Source: Mustelus asterias (Eukaryota). Taken from it: 64,000 nucleotides of DNA. The stretch lies in assembly GCF_964213995.1 (NCBI RefSeq), contig NC_135803.1, positions 9,982,001 to 10,046,000 of the forward strand, read 5' to 3'. This document shows, piece after piece, positions 1 through 64,000 of the stretch; the first letter of the stretch is position 1, and the number at the start of each line of letters is the position of its first letter. A model generated the notes under the pieces. That model ran no database searches. It was not told the DNA's origin and saw only the letters and a program-made list of their open reading frames with translations. Made by a program: the position numbers and the translations under genes.

Positions 1-514
1 ATTCATTGTAATGCTCAAATTTGCTGTAAGTCCCCTTAGAATAAGACCAGACATAAAATTGTGTCAAGTATGCATAACTCATAGCAAATAATGCGACCTA
101 ATGAAAGCGCCACTCTCGCACCTAAAATTCATCTTTAAATATGAAAGCTACACTTTCAACTCGCTCAACAGCTACCCAAACTTACCAGACACACCCGACA
201 AAAAACCTGCAATTAGGGAAGCTTTTAGAGTTTTCAAACAGTAAATTACACTGAATCCATACAAATGCTTGAATTCAGTGTGAGTTCCAGTGAGGATAGA
301 CTTTAAAATTTCAATAGAACACGAGAAAGCTAACGTTCTTTCATGGTGCGCCTGGACATCTGATGGCAATTCTAAGAAAGACTGGAAGCAAATGCAACTT
401 AAGGAAACTCAAATATTAGGTTTTGGAGCGGCGACCGTTTTATGGCCGGGTTTGAGTTTGTGTGGAAGGATCATCCTGGTTGTTTGTATATATTAAACTT
501 TAAGTTTGCTGTCA

Positions 515-4821: not shown

Positions 4822-5657
4822 GTTAGCTACGTTTCCACCTGCGTGTGCCTGAGTAACAGGATCGAATATCCGTCCTTTTTCAGAACAATACCGAGTGATT
4901 ATTTTCAGGTGAGAGCGTTAGCCCAACTCGTCAGTCACTTTGGCTGGACGTGGATCGGGACGATTAAAAGTGACGATGACTATGGTAACTTTGGAATGCA
5001 AGCTTTCATGGAAATCGTACGCAGGTCAGGCATTTGCATCGCTTTCTCTGAGTCCTTTCATAAAACATATTCTCAGGAAAAGCTGCTCAATGTTATACAC
5101 ACCATAAAGACATCATCCACATCCGTCGTTGTGGCCTTTCTGTCTCAATCGGATATGGCTATTTTGCTCAGAGGAATAGCACAGCAAAATATCACCGGAG
5201 TGCAGTGGGTAGGAAGCGAAGCCTGGATTACAACATCTCCTCTCCCACCAGGAAAAAGCAGACGATTTATTTCTGGCGCGATTGGAATTGCAATTCGTAA
5301 AGTCAGCTTACCAGGGCTGAAAGAATTCCTGATGGACATTCACCCGGCTGTGTACCCAGGAAACCTTTTGGTGAAGGAGTTTTGGGAGAGGACATTCAAC
5401 TGTACACTAAAGAACATGGAAAACAGAACAACTGGAACTAAACCTGACTCAGTGTCCAAGCATGCACAGCAAAACAGAATCTACACACTGCCCGCAATGC
5501 ATTTACAGATGTCACTGAGTACAGAGTTACTTACAACGTATATAAAGCCACTTATGCCATAGCTCATGCTCTCCATGATATGTTTTCGTGCGAAACTGGT
5601 AAAGGGCCATTTTACAATAACAGCTGTGCAAACATTTCAAACTTTCAACCATGGCAG
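4822..5657 (+). CDS. V2R gene A exon 3 (frameshifted)
   Basis: [23 protein letters not shown] and SEAW motifs. After 5454 the homologous sequence ([17 protein letters not shown]...QPWQ) continues in another frame up to the donor at 5658. Confidence 0.9.
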
Positions 5658-5812
5658 GTAAAGAATAGTAAAGCAGTGAATGTTGTTTGCCCTTTGAGGA
5701 GATGTCTCATTTCATACAATTTCCTTTCTAAAAATGAAATATGACTTTGATACATGCATATTTGAAATAATGTACCATTGATATTTTAACCGTTCTTTTT
5801 CCGTTTATAAAG

Positions 5813-7268: not shown

Positions 7269-8600
7269 GAGGCATAAACAGTGATTTATAAATGTCACGC
7301 CTAACTTCCTCACTTTTGTGCCCTACCTCTGTGTGGAAAGTCAAGTCAAGGAACCTATACGCCTCTCTGGAAGCCTTCTTAACTTACGAAAACCTCTAAC
7401 TTTTGTTAGCGTGTGCCCCAGGCTTCTCCGTTCCCGTATCAATTTAATACTTGCAACATGTAATTAATTTTGCCCTTCTTTATACATTCTATGCAATTTT
7501 TCCTTTCGCGCAGCGTGATTATATGAGTAAATAGAACCATAGAAAATTACAGCTCAGAAACAGGCCTTTTGGCCCTTCTTGTCTGTGCCGAACCATTTTT
7601 TGCCGAGTCCCACTGACCTGCACTTGGACCATATCCCTCCACACCCCTCTCATCCATGAACCCGTCCAAGTTTTTCTTAAATGTTAAAAGTGACCCCGCA
7701 TTTACCACTTTATCCGGCCTCTCATTCCACACTCCCACCACGCTCTGCGTGAAGAAGCCCTCCCTTCCCCTAATATACCCTTCAAACGTTTCTCCTTTCA
7801 CCCTTAACCCATGCGCTCTGGTTTTTCTCTCCCCTAGCCTCAGTGGAAAAAGCCTGCTTGCATTCACTCTATCTATACCCATCAAAATCTTATACACCTC
7901 TATCAAATCTCCCCTCATTCTTCTACGCTCCAGGGAGTAAAGACCCAACCTATTCAAACTCTCTCTGTAACTCAGCTTCTCAAGTCCCGGCAACATCCTT
8001 GTGAACCTTCTCTGCACTCTTTCAACCTTATTTAGATCCTTCCTGTATCTAGGTGACCAAAACTGTACACAATACTCTAAACTCGGCCTCACCAATGCCT
8101 TATATAACCTTACCATAACACTCCAACCTTTATACTCGATACTCCGATTTATAAAGGCCAATGTACCAAAGGCACTCTTTACGACGCGATCCACCTGTGA
8201 CGTCACTTTTAGGGATTCTGTACCTGTATTCCCAGATCCCTCTGTTGAACTGCACTCTTCAGATTCCTACCATTTACCCTGTACGTTCTACTTTGTTTGT
8301 CCTTCCAAAGTGCAATATCTCACACTTGTCTGCGTTAAGTTCCATTTGCCATTTTTTAGCCCATTTTTCTAGTTGGCCCAAATCCCTCTGCAAGCTTTGA
8401 AAACCTTCCTCACTGTCCACTACACCTCCAATCTTTGTATCATCAGCAAATTTGCTGATCCAATTGACCACATTATCATCCAGATCATTGATATAAATGA
8501 CTAACAACAATGGACCCAACACCGATCCCTGCGGCACACCACTAGTAACAGTTTTAACAACACCAGGTTAATGTCCAACAGGTTTATTTGGTAGCAAATA

Positions 8601-8637
8601 CCATTAGCTTTCAGAGCGCCGCTCCTTCGTCAGATGG
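8601..8637 (-). ncRNA. Minimal type-I hammerhead ribozyme (mirror copy)
   Basis: Reverse complement reads CCAU-CUGACGA-A-GGAGC(ggc)GCUCU-GAAAGCUA-AUGG. The core is intact, with one G-U pair in stem II. Confidence 0.75.
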
Positions 8638-8655
8638 AGTGGAAAGGTTTCCACT

Positions 8656-8692
8656 CCATCTGACGAAGGAGCAGCGCTCCGAAAGCTAATGG
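8656..8692 (+). ncRNA. Minimal type-I hammerhead ribozyme
   Basis: CCAU-CUGACGA-A-GGAGC(agc)GCUCC-GAA-AGCU-A/AUGG. Stem I is CCAU:AUGG, stem II is 5 bp and stem III is the palindrome AGCU. Predicted cleavage is after 8688. Confidence 0.85.
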
Positions 8693-11408
8693 TATTTGCT
8701 ACCAAATAAATCTGTTGGACTTTAACCTGGTGTTGTTAAAACTGTTACTGTGTTTACCCCAGTCCAACGCCAGCATCTCCACATCATGCACACCTCTAGT
8801 CACAGGCCTCCACTCAGGGAAGCAATCCTCCACAACCACTCTCTGGCTTCTTCCATTGAGCCAGTGTCTAATCCAATTTACTACCTCCCCATGTATCCCC
8901 AGCGACTGAACCTTCCCATGAGGGACCTTGTCAAAGGCCTTGCTGAAATCCAGGTAGACAACATCCACCGCCTTCCCTTCATCCACTTTCCTGGTAACCT
9001 CCTCGAAAATCTCTAATAGATTGGTCAAACATGACCTACCACGCACAAAGCCATGTTGACTCTCCCTAATAAGTCCCTGTCTATCCAAATATTTGTAGAC
9101 CCTATCCCTTATCACACCGTCCAATGACTTGCCCACCACCGACGTCAAACTTACTGGCCTATAATTTCCCGGATTTCTTTTGGAACCTTTTTTAAACAAC
9201 AGAACAACATGAGCCACCCTCCAATCACCCAGCACTTCCCCGTGAATACTGACATTTTAAACATGTCTGCCAGGGCCCCTGCAAGTTCAACACGAGCTTC
9301 CCTCAAGGTCCGTGGGAATACCCTTTCCGGTCCTGGGGATTTATCCACTCTGATTTGCCTCAAGACAGCAAGCACCTCCTCCCCTTTAATCTGTAAAGGT
9401 TCCATGACCTCCCTACCTTTTGCCCTATTTCCGTAGACTCCATGCCCGTTTCCTCAGTAAATACGGATGCAAAAAAACCATTTAGTATCTCCCCCACCTC
9501 TTTTAGTTCCATACACAGTCTACCACTCTGGTCTTCAAGAGGACGAATTTTATCCCTCACTATCCTTTTGCTCCTAACATACCTATAGAGGTTCTTTGGA
9601 TTTTCCTTCACTCTGTCTGGCAAAGCAACCTCATGTCTTCTTCTAGCCCTCCTGATTTCCCTCTTAAGTAGCTTCTTGCACTTTTTATACTCCTCGAGCA
9701 TCTGGTCTGTTCCTTGCTCCCTTTACATTTCATACAACTCTCTCTTCCTCTCAATCAGTGTTACAATCTCCCTCGAGAACCAAGGATCCTTATTCCTATT
9801 TACTTTGCCTTTAGTCCTGACAGGAACATACAAACTCTGCACTCTCAAAATTTCTCCTTTGAAGTCCTCCCACTTTCCATTTACATCCTTACCAGAGAAC
9901 AGCCTGTGCCAATCCACACTTCCCAGATCCCTTCTCATTTAATCAAATTTGGCCTTTTTCCAGTTCAGAACTTCAACCCGAGGACCAGAACTATCCTTAT
10001 CCATGATCAGGTTGAAACTAATGTCATTATGATCACTGGATCCAAAATATTCCCTCACACTCACATCCATCACCTGTCCTAACTCGCTTCCCAATAGGAG
10101 ATCCAATATCACATCTTCTCTAGTTTGCACCTCCATAGGCTGATGTAGAAAATTTTCCTGAACACATTTTACAAACTCTACCCCGTCTAAACCTTTAACA
10201 GTATGCGAGCCCCAATCCATATGTGGAAAATTAAAATCCCCTACTATCACAACTTTGTGTTTCTTGCAGTTGTCAGTTATCTCTCTGCTGATTTGCTCCT
10301 CCAATTCTCGCTGACTATTGGGTGGTCTATAATACAACCCCATTAATGTGGTCATACCTTTCCTGTTTCTCAGCTCCACCCATAGGGCCTCTGTAGACAA
10401 GCTCCCTAATCTATCCTGCCTGAATACCGCTGTAACATTTTCCCTGACGAACAATGCCACCCCCCGCCCCACCTTTTATCCCTCTGCCCCTATCCCGCCT
10501 GAAACATTGGAACCCTGGAACATTGAGCTGCCAGTTCTGCCCCTCCTCTAGCCAAGTTTGACTAATGGCTATAATGTCATATTTCCATGTGTCTATCCAC
10601 GCCTTCAGCTCATCTGCCTTCCCCATAATACTCCTGGCATTGAAATAGACACACCTCAAAAGGTTATTTCCACCACACTCAACCCTTCCATTGGTGATTT
10701 TGCTTGAACTAACCTGTCTTTTTACCCCTGCTCCACTATCTTCTCTGGCACTCTGATTCCCATTCCCCTGCAAATCTAGTTTAAACGCTCTCCAATAACA
10801 GTAGCAAACCTCCCTGCAAGTATAATGGTCCCCTTGTCGTTTAGGTGTCACCCGACTCTTTTGTACAGGTCCCACCTGCCCCAGACGAGGTCCCAATGAT
10901 CCAAGAGTCGGAAACCCTGCCCCCTACACCAGTTTCTCAGCCACGTGTTCATCCGCCCAAGCATCCTACTCCTACCCTCACTGGCACGTGATGTCATCAA
11001 TTACCCTAGAACCCAAGGGGATTTGAGCTTTGGAGTGTGGGGTGGATGGAACCAAGCAGAGACCGGGCAACTGATCCTATTTCAGTGACTCACTCTGGCC
11101 AGTGACCTCGCTTTGCACTTAGATCTTGGGCTGAAATAGCTTGCTAGCAATTGCTGCATGGGTTCACATTCGGGGACTAACTATCAGAAGAAATAAGAGA
11201 AGGAGCAGCCAGGAGATGGCGCCCAAGAACAAATCAACATCTTTCAGAAAGGAAAGGGGAGGAAGATGGGGCTAATATGCATTCAGGATTCCCTGATCAC
11301 ACTCCCACGAGGAATATCCACCCATTCACCCTTAAAGGCAATGAATGTTAAGGGACTAAAAACAAAATACAAGATGACTATCTATTGCATTTTATTCTCT
11401 AAAACAAG

Positions 11409-11532: not shown

Positions 11533-11643
11533 GTAAGAATAAGCAGGAGTACGCATGTTACAAATAATTTAGCTACGATTCATCTCCGAATATGGAATGA
11601 TTTGAATCATGTCACTTTCAGTTTCGACTGTGTTTGTCTTTAG

Positions 11644-12536
11644 ACTCAACAGAATGCATTCGCTGTCCGATGGAATACCGGTCTAATGCTCACAGAGACC
11701 AATGCATACCGAAGCAAATTCAGTTTCTTTCCTTTGAGGAAATCATGGGGATTATTTTGGTCTCGCTCGCATTACTTGGAGCTTGCATTAGTATAATTGT
11801 CCTTGTAACGTTCTACCTTCACAGAAACACACCTATTGTTAAGGCGAATAACTCGGAGTTGAGCTTTTTGCTTCTTATCGCGTTAACGCTTTGTTTTTTG
11901 TGCTCAGTGACATTCATCGGAGAACCTTCAGGCTGGTCCTGTGCATTACGCCATGTAGCATTTGGTATTACATTTGTTCTTTGCATTTCTTGCGTTCTGT
12001 GCAAAACAATTGTTGTGGTGATGGCATTCAATGCAACGCTTCCGAACAACAATCTCATGAAGTGGTTTGGACCCACACAACAGCGTTTAACTGTTTTAGT
12101 TCTAGCACTTGTACAAAGTTTAATATGTGCTGTCTGGCTAACTCTATCGCCACCCCATCCTGAAAAAAACAGTGACTATTTTAAGGAGATAATTGTCTAT
12201 GAATGCCATGTAGGGTCTGCAATAGCCTTTTACTGTGTATTAGGTTACATTGGATTTCTGTCTTGCGTGTGTTTTGTGGCTGCCTTTCTAGCTCGAAAAC
12301 TTCCTGATAATTTCAACGAAGCGAAACACATCACTTTTAGTATGCTTATCTTTTGTGCCGTTTGGATAACTTTCATTCCAGCGTATGTAAGTTCTCCTGG
12401 GAAATATACTGTTGCGGTAGAAATATTTGCCATTCTGTCCTCCAGTTTTGGTTTGCTGGTTTGCATTTTTGCGCCTAAATGTTATATTATCCTTCTGAGA
12501 CAAGAAATGAATACGAAGAAATGCTTGATGGGTTAA
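11644..12536 (+). CDS. V2R gene A exon 6 (class C 7TM domain)
   Basis: [37 protein letters not shown] and FAPKCY motifs. Confidence 0.95.
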
Positions 12537-14399: not shown

Positions 14400-15590
14400 A
14401 TAGTTGCCCCCTCGTTCTAGAATCTGCAACACGTGGAAATAATTTATCTTTATCTTCTCTGTCATTTTCTGTTAATATCTTGAATGCTTCGATCAGATCA
14501 TCCCCTTAACCTTCTAAATTCTAGGGAAAACAGGCCTAATTGTTGTAATCTCTCTCTGAATTCCAGGTATCATTCTTGTGAATCTATTCTGCACTCCCTG
14601 CAAGGCCTATATATCCTTCCTAAGATATGATGTCCAGATCTGCTCAAGTGGTATCTACGTAAGGAGTCTAACAACACCAGGTTAAAGTCCAACAGGTTTA
14701 TCTGGTAGCAAACGCCAGGGTTTTGTACAGCTGCAGTATAACGTCTACGTCATAATACTCCAGTCTTATAGATATAAGGGCTAGCTTTCCGTTAGTCTTC
14801 TTGATTATTTTCCGCCCCTGTAATTGACATTTTAAAGATTTATAACCTGTGCTACCCCCACCTCCCTAAGTCTCTTTGGACATCCACTGTATTTAACTTC
14901 ATACCATCTAGAAAATACCACGATACATAGATTTTCGGCCCAGAATGGATAACCTGACACGTGCTTATATTGAAATCCATCTGCCACAGTTTTGCCCATT
15001 TTCCTCGTCTATCAACATCCCTTTGTAATTCATGCTAATATCTACATGGTCTACAATACCGCCTAACTTTGTGTCATCAGCAAATTTGGATATATGATTA
15101 TCTATGCCATTATCCAAGTCCACATAATGTGAACAATTGAGGCCTCAGCACAGATCTACTAGTCACACCCTGCCATTTTGAGTACCTACCCATTATCCCT
15201 ACATTCCGTTGCCTGCCACTCAACCAATTTCCCAGCCATGTCAGTAAATTGCCTCAATTCCGTGGGCAATTCATGTGTTAACAGTCTTTGATGTGGGACT
15301 TTTTCAAATGTCTTCTGGAGGTCCATATAAACAACATCCATAGGCATTCTCTTGCCCAGTGCATAAATCCCCTCTTCAAGAGAATCAGTGAGTTTTGTTA
15401 GGCATGACCTATCTGTTATGATCCTATGCTGGCACTCCCAGAGTAACTGAACATTTTCGTGATGTTCAGTTAAAACTATCATTGATTATGGACTCCAACA
15501 ATTTCCCCATCACAGAGGTTAGACTAACCGATCTGTAATTCCCTAGTTTTCCTCTTTCAGCCTTCTTGAAAAGCGGAATGAGATGTGCAA
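14400..15590 (-). mobile_element. Old degenerate CR1 RT fragment
   Basis: Minus ORF with SCLTKL and DVVYMDLQKTFEKVPHQRLL; tttgtgtcatcagcaaattt encodes KFADDTK. Paralog at 51430-52570. Confidence 0.8.
14657..14712 (-). mobile_element. PLE pseudo-LTR terminal fragment (about 55 bp)
   Basis: aacaacaccaggttaaagtccaacaggtttatctggtagcaaa. Absent from the paralogous site gtatct|cgccag at about 51695. Confidence 0.8.
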
Positions 15591-27000: not shown

Positions 27001-30000
27001 AATGTGCATACTCCGCACACACAGTGACCCAAGCTGGGAATCGAACCCAGGTCCCTGGTGCTGTGAGGCAGCAGTGTTAATCAAATTTTGTTGATTGTTT
27101 TAGAATTTTGTGGATTGTCTTAACTGCTTGTTTGTCGCAGCTATCCAAATGTGAGCAGAATATTCAGAGCAGGTTGTTGAATGTGGATTGGAATTCCCAG
27201 TGAGCTGCACGCTCTTAATAAAAGGTTTTTGTTCAGGATCTTGGTGACAAAACTTCAAAGGGGGAAGGAAAAGCCTAAACGAAGCGGCACGTATTTGTAT
27301 TAAGGTTGGCCGAAACATCATGGCGAAGATATGCAAAATACTGATATGTTTCTTGTTGGTTTTTGATTGCCATCAGCTTTAAGAGCAATAATTAAGTTCT
27401 TGAATACAATGGGGCCAATTTTCCCGTTGGAATTGGCAATGAAAGTGGGAAATGGGGCGAACCATGGAAAGGTCCGTTGATCTCGGGCGGGATTTCCCGG
27501 TTGCGGGGCGAGCGCAGCCAGAAAATCCCGTCCACGGCTCAGAAATAGGACGGTTCGCTCATGAAAAAAGATGACGTCGGGCAGTTGCTACCCTATTTGA
27601 AAATAATTTCATTTCAATGTCATTTATGCGAATTTTTAAAAAAATCTATTTTATCGACACAAACTATATATTTTTTTTACAGCTTTTGGTATAGAGGTAT
27701 GCGTTTCGTGCTGACCATGATTTTCGCCATTGAAGAAATCAACAAGAACCCACGTCTGCTTCCTAATGTTACACTGGGCTACCGGATTTACGATACTTGT
27801 ACCATGCCATTTTTAACTTTGAAATCAGCATTTGAATTTCTAAACAAAGGTGAAGACACGTCTTCCAATTTAGCTTGCAAAAAATCTTCTACCGTCGCTG
27901 CTATCGTCGGCGAGTCTGGATCTTCGCGATCTGCAGCAATGGCCACCTTAATCGGTCCATTCAGGATCCCTATGGTAAGGCATACAATCATCAATGTTCC
28001 GAGCTCAAAGTGCAGAAAGTACAGTTGCTGTCGAAGTAATAGGTTACTTCCATTTATTGTTGGATTATTAGACTCTAATATTCATTATTCCACAAAAATC
28101 TCATGGGGACTAAATCTTGACATAAATATATTTAAGTGCTAACTAACATTGCTAAGAACTGCAATGGTGTGCAGTAATGTTAATGCAAATGCATTTGAAC
28201 TGCGAACAATAATGAGGCAATTTAATTATAGTTTGATAACTTAGCAGGAAAGATTGGAGCTAGATAAGAGAAGGCTGAAAGTTTCCCTGATACTCCGAAG
28301 GAGGTCTTTAAGATTATGAAGTTCTCCGTTAAGGTAGACAGAGAGAACATGTTTCCGCATGTTTTATTATTCACAACTAGTGAACATAAAAATAAAATAC
28401 CCACTAATGATTATAGGAAGGAATTTCAGCTAAAGTTTTTTTTCCAACAAGTCGCGGCGAGCAGGTAGCATTCACTACCGTCTGGGTTATTTGAGGTGAA
28501 TAACAGATATGCACTTAAGGGGAGTTGGATAAGTACTTAGGCAGAAAAGGAACAGGTTATATATTGATAAGGTGAGCTCAAAAGAACGGGTGGTGGGGGG
28601 CGGGGGGTGGGGTAGGGAGTTGGACCTATTGGAGATACTTAAATTTATGAAAGGTTTTAATGGAGTGAAAACATATTTCCTCTTAACAGGAGGATATAAC
28701 TAGGCACCATCGATATAAGATAGTCGCCAAGAAATCTAATACATAATTCAGAAGAAACGTCTTTTCCCAATGACTGATGAGAATGGGGAACTTGCTGCCA
28801 ACGCAAGTTAAAGCAAATAATGCAGACGCATTTATGGGAAATGGAGAATAACATCTGAGAGAGAGAAGTGAATAGACGGTTACAAAGCTTGCTTTAGATG
28901 AGAAAAGCTGAGGTAAGGTGAGAGTGAAGCACGAAGGCCGGCATGGACTTGTTGGGTCGAATAGCCTGTTTCTGTGTCATATGGTATGTGTAACCCCATG
29001 TAGCGTGGAAGGAGGCTCGTCTGGAGCAGTAAGGCTGCATAGATCCGTGAGGTCGAATGGCCTGTCTTTGTGCAGTTGACTCCGATGTACTCCAATGTCA
29101 AGGAATTATTCCTCATATTTAAGGGTATCTTAAACGATTCATGTCAGCAATGCTATTCCGGTTCTCCTTTTATATCTGAATAGATATTAAATATAAATGG
29201 GGGTGGTGGGAGGAGGAGGGGGTAGGGGAGGGGGCATGAAAACCGATCCTGATTTCACACAAACCATTAAGTGATCAGATATTACTTTCTCCTCAGACCT
29301 AAATTGCTCTGTTCCCAGTATCTTGTTCCGGGTTCGCCTACCAGTCTGCCACCCGCACCCTTTGTATGATACTCGGCTGCTTTGCAGATGTTTTATTTTC
29401 GCATTTAATCCCCTCTACCCTATAGGTAACAATTGAGCGTCATCTGGTTCTCTTGCACTGTCGGTTCACATTAGGAATCTTACTAATTAAATTTGCTGAA
29501 GAACTTCAATAGAAAACTTATTACCTTGAATGTAATTTGCCGTGAGACTTGCCTTGTGTATTAGTTAAATTCACGCTGCCAAATTACATTAGAATAATTC
29601 GCACAGACGGAGATTATCCAATCCATTCTGCACGTGCAGCCTTATTGGAGGATCGAACCAATTAATGCAACTCTCCTACATTTTCCCTTCCATTTTTCCA
29701 TTCGTGTAGATATCAAATTATTTTCTCTACTATGCAGAGTACTGTTTCTTGCTGTCTATATTTTCCACTTGACTGACGCCCCCAATCTCTGACATCTTTC
29801 CAGTAAATGTCCTCTGAACTTTCTCCTAAGACTGGAAACCTCGAGCCGAAAATGCTGGGCAGACACAGCAGTTTCTTGCAGAAGAGGAAACGGTTACAGT
29901 TTTAACTCTTCATTTAGGATATCTGCGACATTTCGTGCAGTGTTTCCATAACCTCATCCCTTCTCGCAGTTGAATATTGTTCTGGAAGTGAATGAAAATG

Positions 30001-40380: not shown

Positions 40381-40933
40381 ATAACTTCTCAAAATCTAAT
40401 ATTACGCATCCCAGAGTGTTGAAAGAAGTTGCCCTGGAGATGGTGGATGCATTGGTGCTCATCTTCCAAAATTCTATAGATTCTGGAATGGTTCCTGAAG
40501 ATTGTAAGGTAGCAAACGTCGCCCCACTATTTATTCCCACCAGGAAAAAGCAGACGATTTATTTCTGGCGCGATTGGAATTGCAATTCGTAAAGTCAGCT
40601 TACCAGGACTGAGTACCCAGGAAACCTTTTGGTGAAGGAGTTTTGGGAGAGGACATTCAACTGTACACTAAAGAACATGGTAAACAGAACAACTGAAACT
40701 CAACCTGACTCTGAGATCCAAGCATGCGCAGCAAAAGAGAATCTACACACTGCCCGCAATGCGTTTACAGATGTCACTGAGTACAGAATTACTTACAACA
40801 TATATAAAGCCACTTATGCCATAGCTCATGCTCTCCATGATAAGTTTTCGTGTGAAACTGGTAAAGGACCATTTTACAATAACAGCTGTGCAGATATTTC
40901 AAACTTACCACCATGGCAGGCAAAGAATAGTAA

Positions 40934-41229
40934 TGATGTGGACCTGCAGAGTTTCACTGGCTGTCTTGTCTGGAGACAATACACATCTTTTTAGCCTGTC
41001 TTGATGCTCTCTCCACTCCCATTGTTTTGTTTCTTAAAGACTGGATTAGTTGTAAGTATTCGCATTCCAACCATTATTCATGTAAATTGAGTCTGTGTCT
41101 TTATAAGTTCTGTTTGTGAACAGAATTCCCACTCACCTGAAGAAGGGGCTTAGAGCCTCGAAAGCTTGTGTGGCTTTTGCTACCAAATAAACCTGTTGGA
41201 CTTTAACCTGGTGTTGTTAAACTTCTTAC
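40934..41229 (+). mobile_element. PLE pseudo-LTR insertion (296 bp) at the exon 3 donor of A'
   Basis: TSD (c/t)aaagaatagtaa at 40921-40933 and 41230-41242. Ends with accaaataaacctgttggactttaacctggtgttgttaaacttcttac. Absent in gene A. Confidence 0.9.
41129..41173 (+). ncRNA. Minimal type-I hammerhead ribozyme (second variant)
   Basis: CCACUCAC-CUGAAGA-A-GGGGC(uuaga)GCCUC-GAA-AGCU-U/GUGUGG. The stem sequences differ from the 8656 copy but pairing is retained. Confidence 0.8.
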
Positions 41230-41387
41230 TAAAGAATAGTAAAGCAGTGAATGTTGTTTGCCCTTTGAGGAGATGTCCCTGTTGATAAAATAGCCTTTCT
41301 GGAAATGAAATATGACTTTGATGCTTACATGCATATTTGAAAGAATTTACCATCGATATACTAACCGTTCTATTTCCTTTTATAAAG

Positions 41388-42370: not shown

Positions 42371-44775
42371 GGGCGGCACGGTAGCACAGTGGTTAGTACT
42401 GCTGCTTCACAGCTCCAGGGACCTAGGTCCGATTCCCGACTTGGGCCACTGCCTGTGTGGAGTTTTGATGTGGAGATGCCGGCGTTGGACTGGGGAGAAC
42501 ACAGTAAGAGTTTTCACAACACCAGGTTAAAGTCCAACAGGTTTATTTGGTAGCAAACACCATCAGCTTTCGGAGCGCTGCTCCTTCGTCAGATGGAGTG
42601 GAAATGTGCTCGCAAACAGGGCACAGAGACACAGAAATCAAGTTACAGAATACTGATCAGAATGCGAATCCCTACAGCCAGCCAGATCTTAAAGATACAG
42701 ACAATGTGGGTGGAGGGAGCATTAAGCACAGGTTAAAGAGATGTGTATTGTCTCCAGACAGGACAGCCTGCAAGTCCAGGAGGCATGCTGTGGGGGTTAC
42801 TGATCATGTGACATAAATCCAACATCCCGGTTTAGGCCGTCCTCATGTGTGTGGAACTTGGCTATCAGTTTCTGCTCAGCGACTCTGCGCTGTCGTGTGT
42901 CGTGAAGGCCGCCTTGGAGAACGCTTGCCTGAAGATCAGAGGCTGAATGTCCGTGACTGCTGAAGTGCTCCCCCACAGGAAGAGAACAGTCTTGCCTGGT
43001 GATTGTCGAGCGGTGTTCATTCAACCGTTGTCGTAGCGTCTGCATGGTTTCCCCAATGTACCATGCCTCGGGACATCCTTTCCTGCAGCGTATCAGGTAG
43101 AAAACGTTGGCCGAGTTGCAAGAGTAGGTACCGTGTACCTGGTAGATGGTGATCTCACGTGAGATGGTGGCATCCGTGTCGATGATCCGGCACGTCTTGC
43201 AGAGGTTGCTGTGACAGGGTTGTGTGGTGTTGTGGTCACTGTTCTCCTGAAGGCTGGGTAGTTTGCTGCGTACAATTGTCTGTTTGAGGTTGCGCGGTTG
43301 TTTGATGGCAAGAAGTGGGGATGTGGGGATGGCCTTGGCGAGATGTTCGTCTTCATCAATGACATGTTGAAGGCTCCGGAGGAGATGCCATAGCTTCTCG
43401 GCTCTGGGGAAGTACTGGACGACGAAGGGTACTCTGTCCACCGTGTCCCGTGTTTGTCTTCTGAGGAGGTCGGTGCGGTTTTTCGCTGTGGCACATCGGA
43501 ACTGTTGATCGATGAGTCGAGCGCCATATCCTGTTCTTATGAGGGCATCTTTCAGCGTCTGGAGGTGTCTGTTGCGATCCTCCTCATCCGAGCAGATCCT
43601 GTGTATTCGGAGGGCTTGTCCATAGGGGATGGCTTCTTTTACGTGTTTAGGGTGGAAGCTGGAGAAGTGGAGCATCGTGAGGTTATCCGTGGGCTTGCGG
43701 TACAGTGAGGTGCTGAGGTGACCGTCCTTAATGGAGACGCGTGCATCCAAGAATGCAACCAATTCCGAAGAGTAGTCCATGGTGAGTCAGATGGTGGAAT
43801 GGAACTTGTTGATGTCATCATATAGTTGTTTCAGTGATTGCTCACCATGACTCCAAAGGAAGAAAATATCATCGATGTATCTAGTGTATAGCATCGGTTG
43901 AAGGTCCTGTGCGGTGAAGAAGTCTTGTTCGAACCTGTGCATGAAGATGTTGGCATATTGAAGTGCGAATTCGGTCCCCATGGCTGTTCCGTGTGTCTGG
44001 ATGAAGAACTGGTTGTTGAAGGTGAAGACATTGTGGTCCAGGATGAAGCGGATGAGTTGTAAAATTACATCAGAAAACTGGCAGTTGATGGCGTTGAGTA
44101 CTGAGGCCGTTGCAGCAATGCCATCATCGTGGGCGATGCTGGTGTAGAGTGCCGAGACATCCATTGTGACGAGGAGTGCTCCTGGTTCAACTGCTCCATG
44201 TGCGTTGAGTTTCTGTAGGAAGTCCGTAGTGTCGCGACAAAAGCTGGGGGTTCTTTGTACAATGGGTTTCAAGATGCCCTCGACATAGCCGGAGAGGTTC
44301 TCGCACAGGGTCCCATTGCCTGATACGATGGGACGGCCGGGTGTGTTTGTCTTGTGTATCTTTGGGAGGCAGTAGAGATCTCCAACGCGGGGAGTACGTG
44401 GGATGAGAGCACATTTCCACTCCATTTGATGAAGGAGCAGCACTCCAAAAGCTAATGGTGTTTGCTACCAAATAAACCTGTTGGACTTTAACCTGGTGTT
44501 GTTGAAACTCTTACTGTGTGGAGTTTGCACATTCTCCTCGTGTCTGCGTGGGTTTCCTCCGGGTGCTCCGGTCTCCTCCCACAGTCCAAAGATGTGCAGG
44601 TTAGGTTGATTGGCCATGCTAAAAATTGCCCCTTAGAGTCCTGAGATGCGTAGGTTAGAGGGATTAGCGGGTAAATATGTAGGGATATGGGGGTAGGGCC
44701 TGGCTGGAATTGTGGTCGGTGCAGACTCGATGGGCCGAATGGCCTCCATCTGCACTGTAGGGTTTCTATGGTTCT
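42371..44775 (+). mobile_element. HE1-type SINE split by the PLE (42371-42465 and 44514-44775)
   Basis: The head lies before the PLE and the body and tail after it. Absent in gene A intron 4. Confidence 0.85.
42466..44513 (-). mobile_element. Penelope-like retroelement (probably Neptune clade), 5'-truncated, RT plus GIY-YIG endonuclease, inverted pseudo-LTRs
   Basis: YCLPKIHK, GTAMG and YIDD (RT); CHSNLCKTC linker; VFYLIRC...WYIGET (GIY-YIG). One in-frame TGA at 43787-43789. Inverted arms of 109 bp at 42503-42611 and 44407-44515. 13-bp TSD ctgtgtggagttt. Confidence 0.95.
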
Positions 44776-49431: not shown

Positions 49432-49542
49432 GTAAGAATAAGCAGGAGTACGCATGTCACAAATAATTTGGCAACGATTCATCTCCGAATATGGAATGAT
49501 TTGAATCATGTCACTTTCAGTTTCGACTGTGTTTGTCTTTAG

Positions 49543-50456
49543 ACTCAACAGAATGCATTCGCTGTCCGATGGAATACCGGTCTAATGCTCACAGAGACCA
49601 ATGCATACCGAAGCAAATTCAGTTTCTTTCCTTTGAGGAAATCATGGGGATTATTTTGGTCTCGCTCGCATTACTTGGAGCCTGCATTAGTATCATTGTC
49701 TTTGTAACCTTCTACCTTCACAGACACACACCTATTGTTAAGGTGAATAACACGGAGTTGAGCTTTTTGCTTCTTATCGCGTTAACGCTTTGTTTTTTGT
49801 GCTCAGTGACATTCATCGGAGAACCTTCAGGCTGGTCCTGTGCATTACGCCATGTAGCATTTGGTATTACATTTGTTCTTTGCATTTCTTGCGTTCTGTG
49901 CAAAACAATTGTTGTGGTGATGGCATTCAATGCAACGCTTCCGAACAAGAATCTCATGAAGTGGTTTGGACCCACACAACAGCGTTTAACAGTTTTAGTT
50001 CTTGCATTTGTGCAAAGTTTAATATGTGCTGTCTGGCTAACTCTCTCGCCACCCCATCCTGAGAAAAACAGTGATTATTTTAAGAAGATAATAGTCTATG
50101 AATGCCATGTAGGGTCTGCAATAGCCTTTTACTATGTATCAGGTTACATTGGATTTCTGTCTTGCGTGTGTTTCGTGGCTGCCTTTCTAGCTCGAAGACT
50201 TCCTAATAATTTGAACGAAGCGAAACCCTTTCCTTTTAATATGCTTATCTTTTGTGCCGTTTGGATAACTTTCATTCCAGCGTATGTAAGTTCTCCTGGG
50301 AAATATACTGTTGCGGTAGAATTATTTGCCATTCCCTCCTCTAGTTTTGGTTTGCTGGTTTGCATTTTTGCGCCTAAATGTTATATTATCCTTCTGAGAC
50401 AAGAAATGTATACGAAGAAATGCTTGATGGGTAAAATTGTTCCAATGAATCATTGA
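49543..50456 (+). pseudogene. V2R A' exon 6 (7TM, open reading frame)
   Basis: Near-identical to 11644-12557 with missense changes in conserved motifs ([22 protein letters not shown]). Confidence 0.88.
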
Positions 50457-62930: not shown

Positions 62931-63531
62931 CAAACGTTGTTGATCGTTTTCCAATTTTGTGGATTGTCTCAGCTGCTTGTTTGTCACAGCTGTCAAAATG
63001 CGAGCAGAATTTTCACAGCAGGTTGTTGAACGTGGATTGGCGTTCCCAGTGAGATGGGAACTTCTAATAAAAGGTTTTGTTCAGCGTTGTGGTTACAAAA
63101 CTTCAAGGGGGGACGGAAAAGCCTTAACGAAGCGGCACATAATTGTATTAGCGTTGAGGTAAACATCATGGCGAAGATATGCAAAATACTGACTAGCTTC
63201 TTCAATTGTTGGTTTTTGATTGCCATCAGCTTTAGGAGCAATGATTAAGTTTTCGAATATAATGGGGCGAATTTTCCAGTTGTAATTGGGAATGGAAATG
63301 GGAAATGGGGCGGACTATGGAAAGGTCCATTGACCTTGGGCTTGATTTCCGGTTTCGGGGCGAGCGCACCCGAAACTCCCGCCAACCGTCTCAGATATAA
63401 GACGATTCACTCATGACACAAGGTGATTTCGGGCAGTTACTGCCCCTATTTGAAAATAAGTTCATTTCAATTCATTTATGTAATTTTAAAAAATCTCTAT
63501 TTTATCGACACCAAACTATATTGTTTTACAG

Positions 63532-63823
63532 CTTTTGGTATAGAGGTCTGCGTTTCGTGCTGACCATGGTTTTCGCCATTGAAGAAATCAACAAGAACCC
63601 AAGTCTGCTTCCTAATGTTACATTGGGTTACCGGATTTACGATACTTGTACTATGCCGCTTTTAACTTTGAAATCAACATTTGAATTTCTCAACAAAGGT
63701 GAAGACCCGTCTTCCAATTTAGCTTGCAAAAAGTCATCTACCGTCTCTGCCATTGTCGGCGACTCTGGATCTTCGCGATCTGTAGCAATGGCCACGTTAA
63801 TCGGTCCATTCAGGATCCCTATG
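63532..63823 (+). CDS. V2R gene B' exon 2 (gene continues beyond the window)
   Basis: [29 protein letters not shown]; 292 nt, bounded by AG/GT. Confidence 0.92.
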
Positions 63824-64000
63824 GTAAGATATATATTCATCAATGTTCCAAGCTCAAAATGCAGAAAGCACAGTTATTGTCAAAGTAATAGGTTACTTCC
63901 ATTTATTGTTGGATTATTAGACTCTAATATTCATTATTCCACAAAAATCTTATGGGGACTAAATCTTGATATAAATATATTTAAGTGCTAACTAACATTG

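What the first reader, a model, noticed from the sequence alone, without database searches (positions are those of the whole stretch)
8534..8800. 206-bp palindrome carrying a hammerhead ribozyme on each strand, inserted as a 241-bp unit
Seen: two 102-bp arms (8544-8645, 8648-8749) separated by only gg, then a 38-nt tail, bounded by a 13-bp TSD inside a CR1 RT. Each arm has a complete minimal type-I hammerhead (CUGACGA, stem II, GAAA, palindromic AGCU stem III, stem I CCAU:AUGG). Established: PLE pseudo-LTRs carry minimal hammerheads thought to cleave as dimers. Inference: this is either an extreme truncation/inversion product of the PLE or a protein-free, retrozyme-like mini-element. Full hairpin formation would sequester both ribozymes. 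It sits in intron 4 of V2R gene A, with one ribozyme in the sense orientation.
Basis: partly seen in the sequence, partly recalled or inferred. Interest (0 to 1): 0.8.

Follow-up and report, generated by a model that had tools for sequence, protein, structure and literature searches.

The report
Palindromic stump of a Penelope retrotransposon
This 241-base mirror-image insertion is the shortest form of an ordinary Penelope-type jumping-gene landing, one of thousands in this genome, and the copies together hint at how such elements insert from both DNA strands and whether their ribozyme cuts in the cell.

Summary
In detail: two 102-nt arms, a tail, a 13-nt TSD, inside a CR1 in V2R intron 4. It is neither a one-off nor a self-copying retrozyme. 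It is the short end of a continuum of head-to-head insertions of an abundant Penelope-like element (PLE): 1,812 loci have a centre of 30 nt or less, and centres differ (27 of 27 in a blind sample). The mirror arm is rebuilt at each landing. Best model: a dimeric PLE enzyme nicks both strands of a symmetric CTG-N16/17-CAG site, primes two cDNAs at the two start sites that bracket the tail, and the cDNA ends are joined. TSDs occur in 88 of 96 two-arm but 13 of 39 single-arm copies. Arm ends pile up just upstream of the hammerhead (this copy) and, more weakly, at its predicted cut (p 0.02 to 8e-5 by method), a possible record of cleavage in vivo. The architecture and the minimal hammerhead are published; the scan reported such palindromes before in two other genomes. 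Cleavage was not tested.

The parts
8534..8546 (+). left target-site duplication (last 3 nt shared with the arm)
   Evidence: 12 of 13 match to 8788-8800
8544..8645 (-). inverted pLTR arm; outer end at the inner RT start site (family offset +101), inner end at offset 0
   Evidence: outer ends of inverted arms fall at +98..104 in 80 of 96 blind loci
8601..8637 (-). minimal type I hammerhead, minus-strand copy, G10.1-U11.1 wobble; predicted cut after 8605
   Evidence: sequence, mismatches, fold
8646..8647 (.). 2-nt centre: junction of the two cDNA ends
   Evidence: no second exact copy among 40 of 573 candidates scored
8648..8749 (+). direct pLTR arm (family offsets 0 to +101)
   Evidence: 94% identical over 139 nt (with tail) to the pLTR of the PLE at 42466-42604
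8656..8692 (+). minimal type I hammerhead, intact core, extra A before stem II, palindromic 4-nt stem III; predicted cut after 8688; sense to the V2R gene
   Evidence: features as in PMC4209133
8750..8787 (+). PLE 'tail'; ends on the start codon of the next unit's ORF (A at 8786)
   Evidence: in L088-L090 the ~890-aa ORF begins directly after this tail
8788..8800 (+). right target-site duplication
8529..8531 (+). left half-site (CTG) of the symmetric target; 17 nt from the right half-site in the empty site
   Evidence: sequence; family pattern
8803..8805 (+). right half-site (CAG) of the symmetric target
   Evidence: sequence
7547..10923 (-). host CR1-type LINE (endonuclease and RT frames), interrupted by the insertion; extent approximate
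42466..44515 (-). longer insertion of the same PLE family: short inverted arm (about 44406-44515), 5'-truncated RT-GIY-YIG body, direct pLTR and tail, own TSD

Best explanation
The element is a de novo, dead-on-arrival insertion of an endonuclease-bearing Penelope-like retrotransposon (Neptune-type linker), mobilised by the family's RT-GIY-YIG protein. Inferred mechanism (twin priming): a dimeric enzyme binds a symmetric CTG-N16/17-CAG site and nicks both strands about 13-14 nt apart; each 3' end primes reverse transcription on PLE RNA, one at the outer start site (tail end, +138) and one at the inner site (+98..104); each cDNA stops at its own point; the two 3' ends are joined head to head through short overlaps or templated fill-ins and the gaps are filled, leaving a TSD, a tail on one arm only and a new centre each time. 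Here both cDNAs stopped at offset 0, the commonest stop, so two whole hammerheads face away from each other. Shown: family membership, copy numbers, variable centres, the two outer ends, TSD and target patterns. Inferred: dimer, twin priming, end joining. The locus itself most likely has no function; a read-through transcript would fold into one hairpin that hides both ribozymes.
For: Same architecture with any body length: window PLE; arms up to nearly a full 3-kb unit on either side (L092, L093, L096, L099); centre 0-30 nt at 1,812 loci and 31-60 nt at 598 out of 37,753 exact arm-motif hits. Blind sample of 160 tail-bearing loci: 96 have an inverted partner, 27 of them of this type, with 27 distinct centres. 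TSD of 9 nt or more in 88 of 96 two-arm but 13 of 39 single-arm copies, mode 13-14. Target symmetric: CAG right in 54 of 87 (control 8.2), CTG left in 54 of 87 (control 10.8), wrong orientation 3 and 2, spacing 16 in 21 and 17 in 10. The tail-less arm is longer by more than 20 nt in 18 of 96 and shorter in 15, which a simple fold-back of one cDNA cannot give. PMC11167929: a purified PLE protein nicks and extends both strands, starts at two internal sites that bracket the tail, is predicted to be a dimer, and does not need the ribozyme.
Against: 63 of 96 arm pairs end within 20 nt of each other (Spearman 0.81; beyond -35, 5 of 25 against 1.7 expected, p 0.022), and arms share subfamily letters in 71 of 79 (45 expected) and 40 of 47 (23 expected); both also fit self-priming on one template. 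Two pairs of loci with unrelated flanks share a complex centre (L349/L350, L351/L352), so centres can be copied. In vitro, the Anolis enzyme used both start sites on both strands alike and preferred AT-rich DNA, unlike the one-inner-one-outer pattern and CTG/CAG preference seen here. 21 loci differ from this centre by one base over 62; a small lineage with a 2-nt centre is not excluded.
Confidence: 0.75

Rival explanations
1. De novo PLE product, but made by self-priming (fold-back of one cDNA, or of an antisense RNA as proposed for rotifer PLEs) rather than by two primed nicks.
For: PMC3846280 Discussion proposes self-priming on an antisense template for head-to-head palindromes. Many centres are perfect palindromes; arm lengths correlate and arms share variants.
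Against: 33 of 96 pairs are unequal by more than 20 nt, in both directions; about 1 pair in 10 is discordant at a subfamily site; the TSD depends on the second arm and the target is symmetric.
Confidence: 0.13
2. A non-autonomous, SINE- or retrozyme-like lineage: short pLTR stumps or the palindromes are themselves transcribed and re-copied by the PLE enzyme, which would explain the pile-up of ends near offset 0.
For: Direct-arm ends pile up at -8..+6 (36 of 78 in -35..37, p 4e-7; single arms 9 of 18, p 0.005), as expected of an RNA with a fixed 5' end. Two identical complex centres at loci with different TSDs, one with the tail on the opposite arm. A 2-nt centre recurs among top hits (four of 30 loci).
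Against: Both twin pairs are neighbours on one contig (1.47 and 0.73 Mb apart) and no further exact copy turned up (40 of 299 and 13 of 13 candidates scored), which points to local gene conversion or repair. No tandem HHR units as in retrozymes. Centres otherwise unique.
Confidence: 0.1
3. One-off artefact of assembly or repair, or a DNA-transposon MITE / miRNA precursor.
For: Rfam lists MIR841 and MIR845_1 matches below their gathering scores.
Against: Thousands of loci with own TSDs; arms are the PLE pLTR; asymmetric tail; the Rfam hits follow from any long hairpin.
Confidence: 0.02

Closest known systems
Complex insertions of endonuclease-bearing PLEs: inverted pLTR + tail + TSD (PMC3846280, passages and Discussion read; PMC8557442, passages read)
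   Same: Inverted 5'-truncated copy joined head to head, 30-40-nt tail on one end only, TSD, palindrome at the junction.
   Different: Here the body is often absent; TSD is 13-14 nt rather than 8-10; the data favour two primed nicks over the self-priming proposed there.
Poseidon PLE of Anolis, in vitro (PMC11167929; parts 1-2 of 4 read, supplements not seen)
   Same: Two RT start sites bracketing the tail, both strands nicked and extended, predicted dimer, hammerhead in the pLTR.
   Different: This family has a CxxxxCxxC linker (Neptune-type), its ORF starts at the tail end rather than inside the ribozyme, and it prefers CTG-N16/17-CAG rather than AT-rich DNA. That paper does not treat inverted products or TSDs in its main text.
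Minimal type I hammerheads of metazoan PLEs (PMC4209133; parts 1-2 of 4 read)
   Same: Short stem I, extra base before stem II, G10.1-C11.1, palindromic stem III; pairs on opposite strands 100-700 bp apart were already noted in Schistosoma.
   Different: Stem II is 5 bp; full copies can extend stem I (offsets -6..0 with +46..52), which this truncated copy lacks. Activity not tested.
Animal non-LTR retrozymes (PMC7229834, passages; bioRxiv 10.64898/2026.07.22.740005, parts 1-3 of 5, supplements closed)
   Same: Non-coding, pLTR-derived, type I hammerhead.
   Different: Retrozymes are head-to-tail tandem repeats with same-strand ribozymes that release circles; this is head-to-head, one ribozyme per strand, with unique junctions.
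Twin priming of L1 (recalled, not read)
   Same: Both target nicks prime cDNA and give an inversion inside a TSD.
   Different: In L1 the two pieces are different parts of the RNA; here both arms copy the same pLTR from two fixed start sites.

Membership tests
Endonuclease-bearing PLE insertion | sequence belongs to the pLTR of an RT + GIY-YIG element | tested here: met
   94% to the window PLE pLTR; ~890-aa ORF with RVT_1; C-terminal part scores 0.96 with GIY-YIG clusters (Pfam itself gave no GIY-YIG hit)
Endonuclease-bearing PLE insertion | inverted 5'-truncated copy, tail on one end, TSD | tested here: met
Neptune clade | Zn-finger-like motif between RT and endonuclease | tested here: met
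   CxxxxCxxC at residue 753 of L088 ORF; criterion from PMC8557442, shared with Nematis
Neptune clade | phylogenetic placement of the RT | not tested
   no reference RT set was fetched
Minimal type I hammerhead | core, extra base before stem II, G10.1-C11.1, NUH triplet, paired stem I | tested here: met
   right arm meets all; of 389 motif matches in fetched loci 361 pair all three stem I positions (328 of one type, 20 compensatory), 344 have extra A with G-C (copies are related, not independent). Left arm has G-U.
Minimal type I hammerhead | self-cleavage as dimer or with protein | not testable with these tools
   only indirect: pile-up of arm ends at the predicted cut
Non-LTR retrozyme | two or more head-to-tail units with same-strand hammerheads | tested here: not met
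   head-to-head, one per strand
Non-LTR retrozyme | copied as a unit from its own RNA (shared junction) | tested here: not met
   27 of 27 centres distinct; own centre not found again in 40 of 573 scored; only two local twin pairs
Non-LTR retrozyme | expressed as linear and circular RNA | not testable with these tools
   no run on record as RNA, contigs only
MITE / fold-back DNA transposon | symmetric ends, fixed length and short fixed TSD from a transposase | tested here: not met
   tail on one side, lengths form a continuum, TSD 10-18 nt

The most novel reading that the evidence does not exclude
This family's insertions are a fossil record of the PLE reaction: the inverted-plus-tail architecture comes from twin priming by a dimeric enzyme on a symmetric CTG-N16/17-CAG target, and arm ends at +41/+42 are copies of RNA that the minimal hammerhead had already cut, which would be genomic evidence that a vertebrate PLE minimal hammerhead cleaves in the germ line; the second pile-up near offset 0 would map the element's RNA start.
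Probability: 0.4. Interest if true: 0.68.

Novelty: new member of a known kind. Interest (0 to 1): 0.43.

Why it matters
The locus itself is an ordinary dead stump. The family matters because two questions that the read papers call open become testable with thousands of young copies: how PLEs make inverted copies with a one-sided tail (PMC8557442, PMC11167929), and whether their weak minimal hammerheads ever cut in vivo (PMC11167929 found no RNA-seq reads at the cut). It names a symmetric target and two start sites for an in vitro assay. About 1,800 or more near-perfect 200-bp palindromes in one genome are also a likely source of hairpin RNA and cruciform breaks (inference), and a trap for MITE and miRNA annotation.

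Tried and rejected
Rfam: no hammerhead family; MIR841/MIR845 are hairpin artefacts. Top-hit sample was biased to short centres, so statistics use the blind 160. My first impression that the inverted arm has constant length was wrong. Ends near -305 were a script window artefact, redone; the script stopped with an error after its first part. Apparent +42/+47 ends from an older subfamily were alignment artefacts and were excluded. Segmental duplication for the twin centres rejected: flanks unrelated, TSDs intact. An intron acceptor as cause of the offset-0 peak is not supported: single arms keep part of the upstream letters, and no such joint is among the 15 of 62 joints shown. No RNA holder listed; contigs cannot show RNA ends. 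No solved structure matches the PLE protein. Sequence look-up in earlier findings gave only an unrelated note. A whole-genome count of tail-bearing arms and of junctions at the cut site was not obtained, so the cut-site result rests on 160 loci; 18 rows, 120 and all 150 were not fetched. Paper searches showed no paper on PLE twin priming, a symmetric target or cut-site footprints; the library lacks most subscription papers, and unseen supplements of PMC11167929 may bear on target and junctions.

Full report
Observation. The palindrome is as described: 102-nt arms at 8544-8645 and 8648-8749 with 4 mismatches, a GG centre, a 38-nt tail and a 12-of-13 TSD that overlaps the left arm by 3 nt, giving a 241-bp insert. 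It interrupts the RT frame of a minus-strand LINE (other copies show the empty site) in intron 4 of a V2R-type gene. Offsets below count from 8648 = 0; the predicted ribozyme cut lies between +40 and +41. The right-arm hammerhead is intact; the left has a G-U in place of G10.1-C11.1. Rfam detects no hammerhead, and one arm folds no better than shuffles. Across fetched loci the motif keeps its pairs: 361 of 389 matches pair all three stem I positions, 20 by a compensatory change (related copies). Its features match the minimal PLE hammerheads of PMC4209133. The whole transcript is predicted to be one hairpin.

What it belongs to. Arm plus tail is 94% identical to the end of a PLE at 42466-44515, which has the same layout with 1.8 kb of RT-endonuclease body between the arms. 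Intact relatives carry an ORF of about 890 aa that starts right at the tail end, with RVT_1, a CxxxxCxxC linker and a GIY-YIG-like end. The host is probably a shark (recalled from the repeat and gene content; not determined). One exact 14-mer of the arm occurs 37,753 times; head-to-head pairs with a centre of 0-30 nt at 1,812 loci and of 31-60 nt at 598; in the first 6.5 Mb of one contig spacings run on to over 2 kb. Either arm can be almost a full unit long.

Is the palindrome copied as a unit? Mostly not. Of the 50 loci listed, 46 centres are distinct (counted by eye). In a sample chosen blind to what lies upstream (130 of the 150 hits and 30 of the 150), 96 of 160 have an inverted partner, 20 another inverted piece and 44 none; 27 have both ends within 15 nt of offset 0 like this copy, with 27 different centres. 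This copy's centre had no second exact match among 40 of 573 candidates scored, though 21 differ by one base. Against this: two pairs of loci with unrelated flanks and intact TSDs share a complex centre, in one pair with the tail on opposite arms. Both pairs are neighbours (1.47 and 0.73 Mb) and no other exact copy was found, so local gene conversion or repair is my reading; it is not proven.

Mechanism. Tail-bearing arms end at about +137..139, partner arms at +98..104 in 80 of 96: the two start sites that bracket the tail in the Anolis PLE assay, where both strands are nicked and extended and a dimer is predicted (PMC11167929). A TSD of 9 nt or more flanks 88 of 96 two-arm but 13 of 39 single-arm copies, mostly 13-15 nt. 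The target is symmetric, CTG left and CAG right in 54 of 87 each against controls of 10.8 and 8.2, 16-17 nt apart; this locus fits with 17. The tail-less arm is the longer by more than 20 nt in 18 of 96, the shorter in 15. I infer twin priming from two nicks and joining of the cDNA ends (overlaps and templated fill-ins are visible; end joining by polymerase theta is recalled, not tested). Self-priming, proposed in PMC3846280, remains possible for the 63 of 96 near-equal pairs; arms share subfamily letters far above chance but not always.

Where the arms stop. Ends are not smoothly spread. The main pile-up is at -8..+6 (36 of 78 direct arms in -35..37, p 4e-7; 9 of 18 single arms), the upstream edge of the ribozyme domain; this copy belongs to it, so its template was uncut. 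The cause (RNA start or RT drop-off) is unresolved. A second pile-up sits at the predicted cut, first seen in separate loci: 14 of 47 direct arms in 7..48 begin at +39..42 (p 8e-5, strict reading; 11 of 47 at +38..42, p 0.02, gapped reading); by furthest arm 12 of 40 (scan-corrected p 0.008), 8 of 36 (p 0.018) after dropping four junctions with an ambiguous overlap (one row, L219, is misread there). Against: +43..46 is nearly as dense, the mode is +40 rather than +41, eight insertions reach +31..38, and partner arms rarely end at +53..85, so stalling in the structured domain plus trimming could give the same picture. I put real cleavage at about even odds.

Comparison and novelty. Inverted copy, tail and TSD are standard PLE anatomy, and opposite-strand hammerhead pairs were noted in 2014. 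It fails the retrozyme definition of head-to-tail units. Two earlier notes of this scan on other genomes reach the same basic reading; I saw them after my own tests. My nine searches found no paper on twin priming, a symmetric target or cut-site footprints for PLEs, within a library that lacks most subscription journals.

Verdict. Real, known kind, new family member; the locus is ordinary, the population is informative. Interest 0.43.

Noticed in passing
window 14660-14718: Single PLE arm on the minus strand of another subfamily that begins at about +42, next to the predicted ribozyme cut, with no clear TSD.
   Followed up: partly
window about 40920-41243: Older-subfamily PLE stump just behind a V2R exon donor: tail-only inverted piece, 3' UTR and pLTR, 12-13-nt TSD; the left copy of the donor reads GC instead of GT.
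   Followed up: no
window 4822-5744: Exon 3 of the host V2R gene is split over two reading frames, i.e. a frameshift; the gene may be a pseudogene.
   Followed up: no
L349/L350 and L351/L352 (G000:C1, 50.4/51.9 Mb and 173.3/174.1 Mb): Identical complex centres at neighbouring loci with unrelated flanks; in the second pair the tail is on the opposite arm; L349 has discordant arms, as expected of a conversion recipient.
   Followed up: partly
L001, L009, L259, L279, L294; L275, L276, L281; L242, L291: Independent PLE insertions at the same few sites inside CR1-type LINEs, consistent with the CTG/CAG target preference.
   Followed up: partly
L092, L093, L096, L099: Large head-to-head insertions; L092 has two nearly full-length ORF arms.
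   Followed up: partly
L122, L174, L111: Insertions whose inverted piece is the tail alone (about +137 to +108), or an arm without tail on the direct side.
   Followed up: no
window 42466-42612 (minus strand): In longer copies offsets -6..0 can pair with +46..52 and extend stem I; the 241-bp copy lacks this (pairing read by eye).
   Followed up: no
window 11601-12536 and 49500-50456; 27549-28142 and 63401-63991: Near-identical V2R exons: a recent tandem duplication within the cluster.
   Followed up: no
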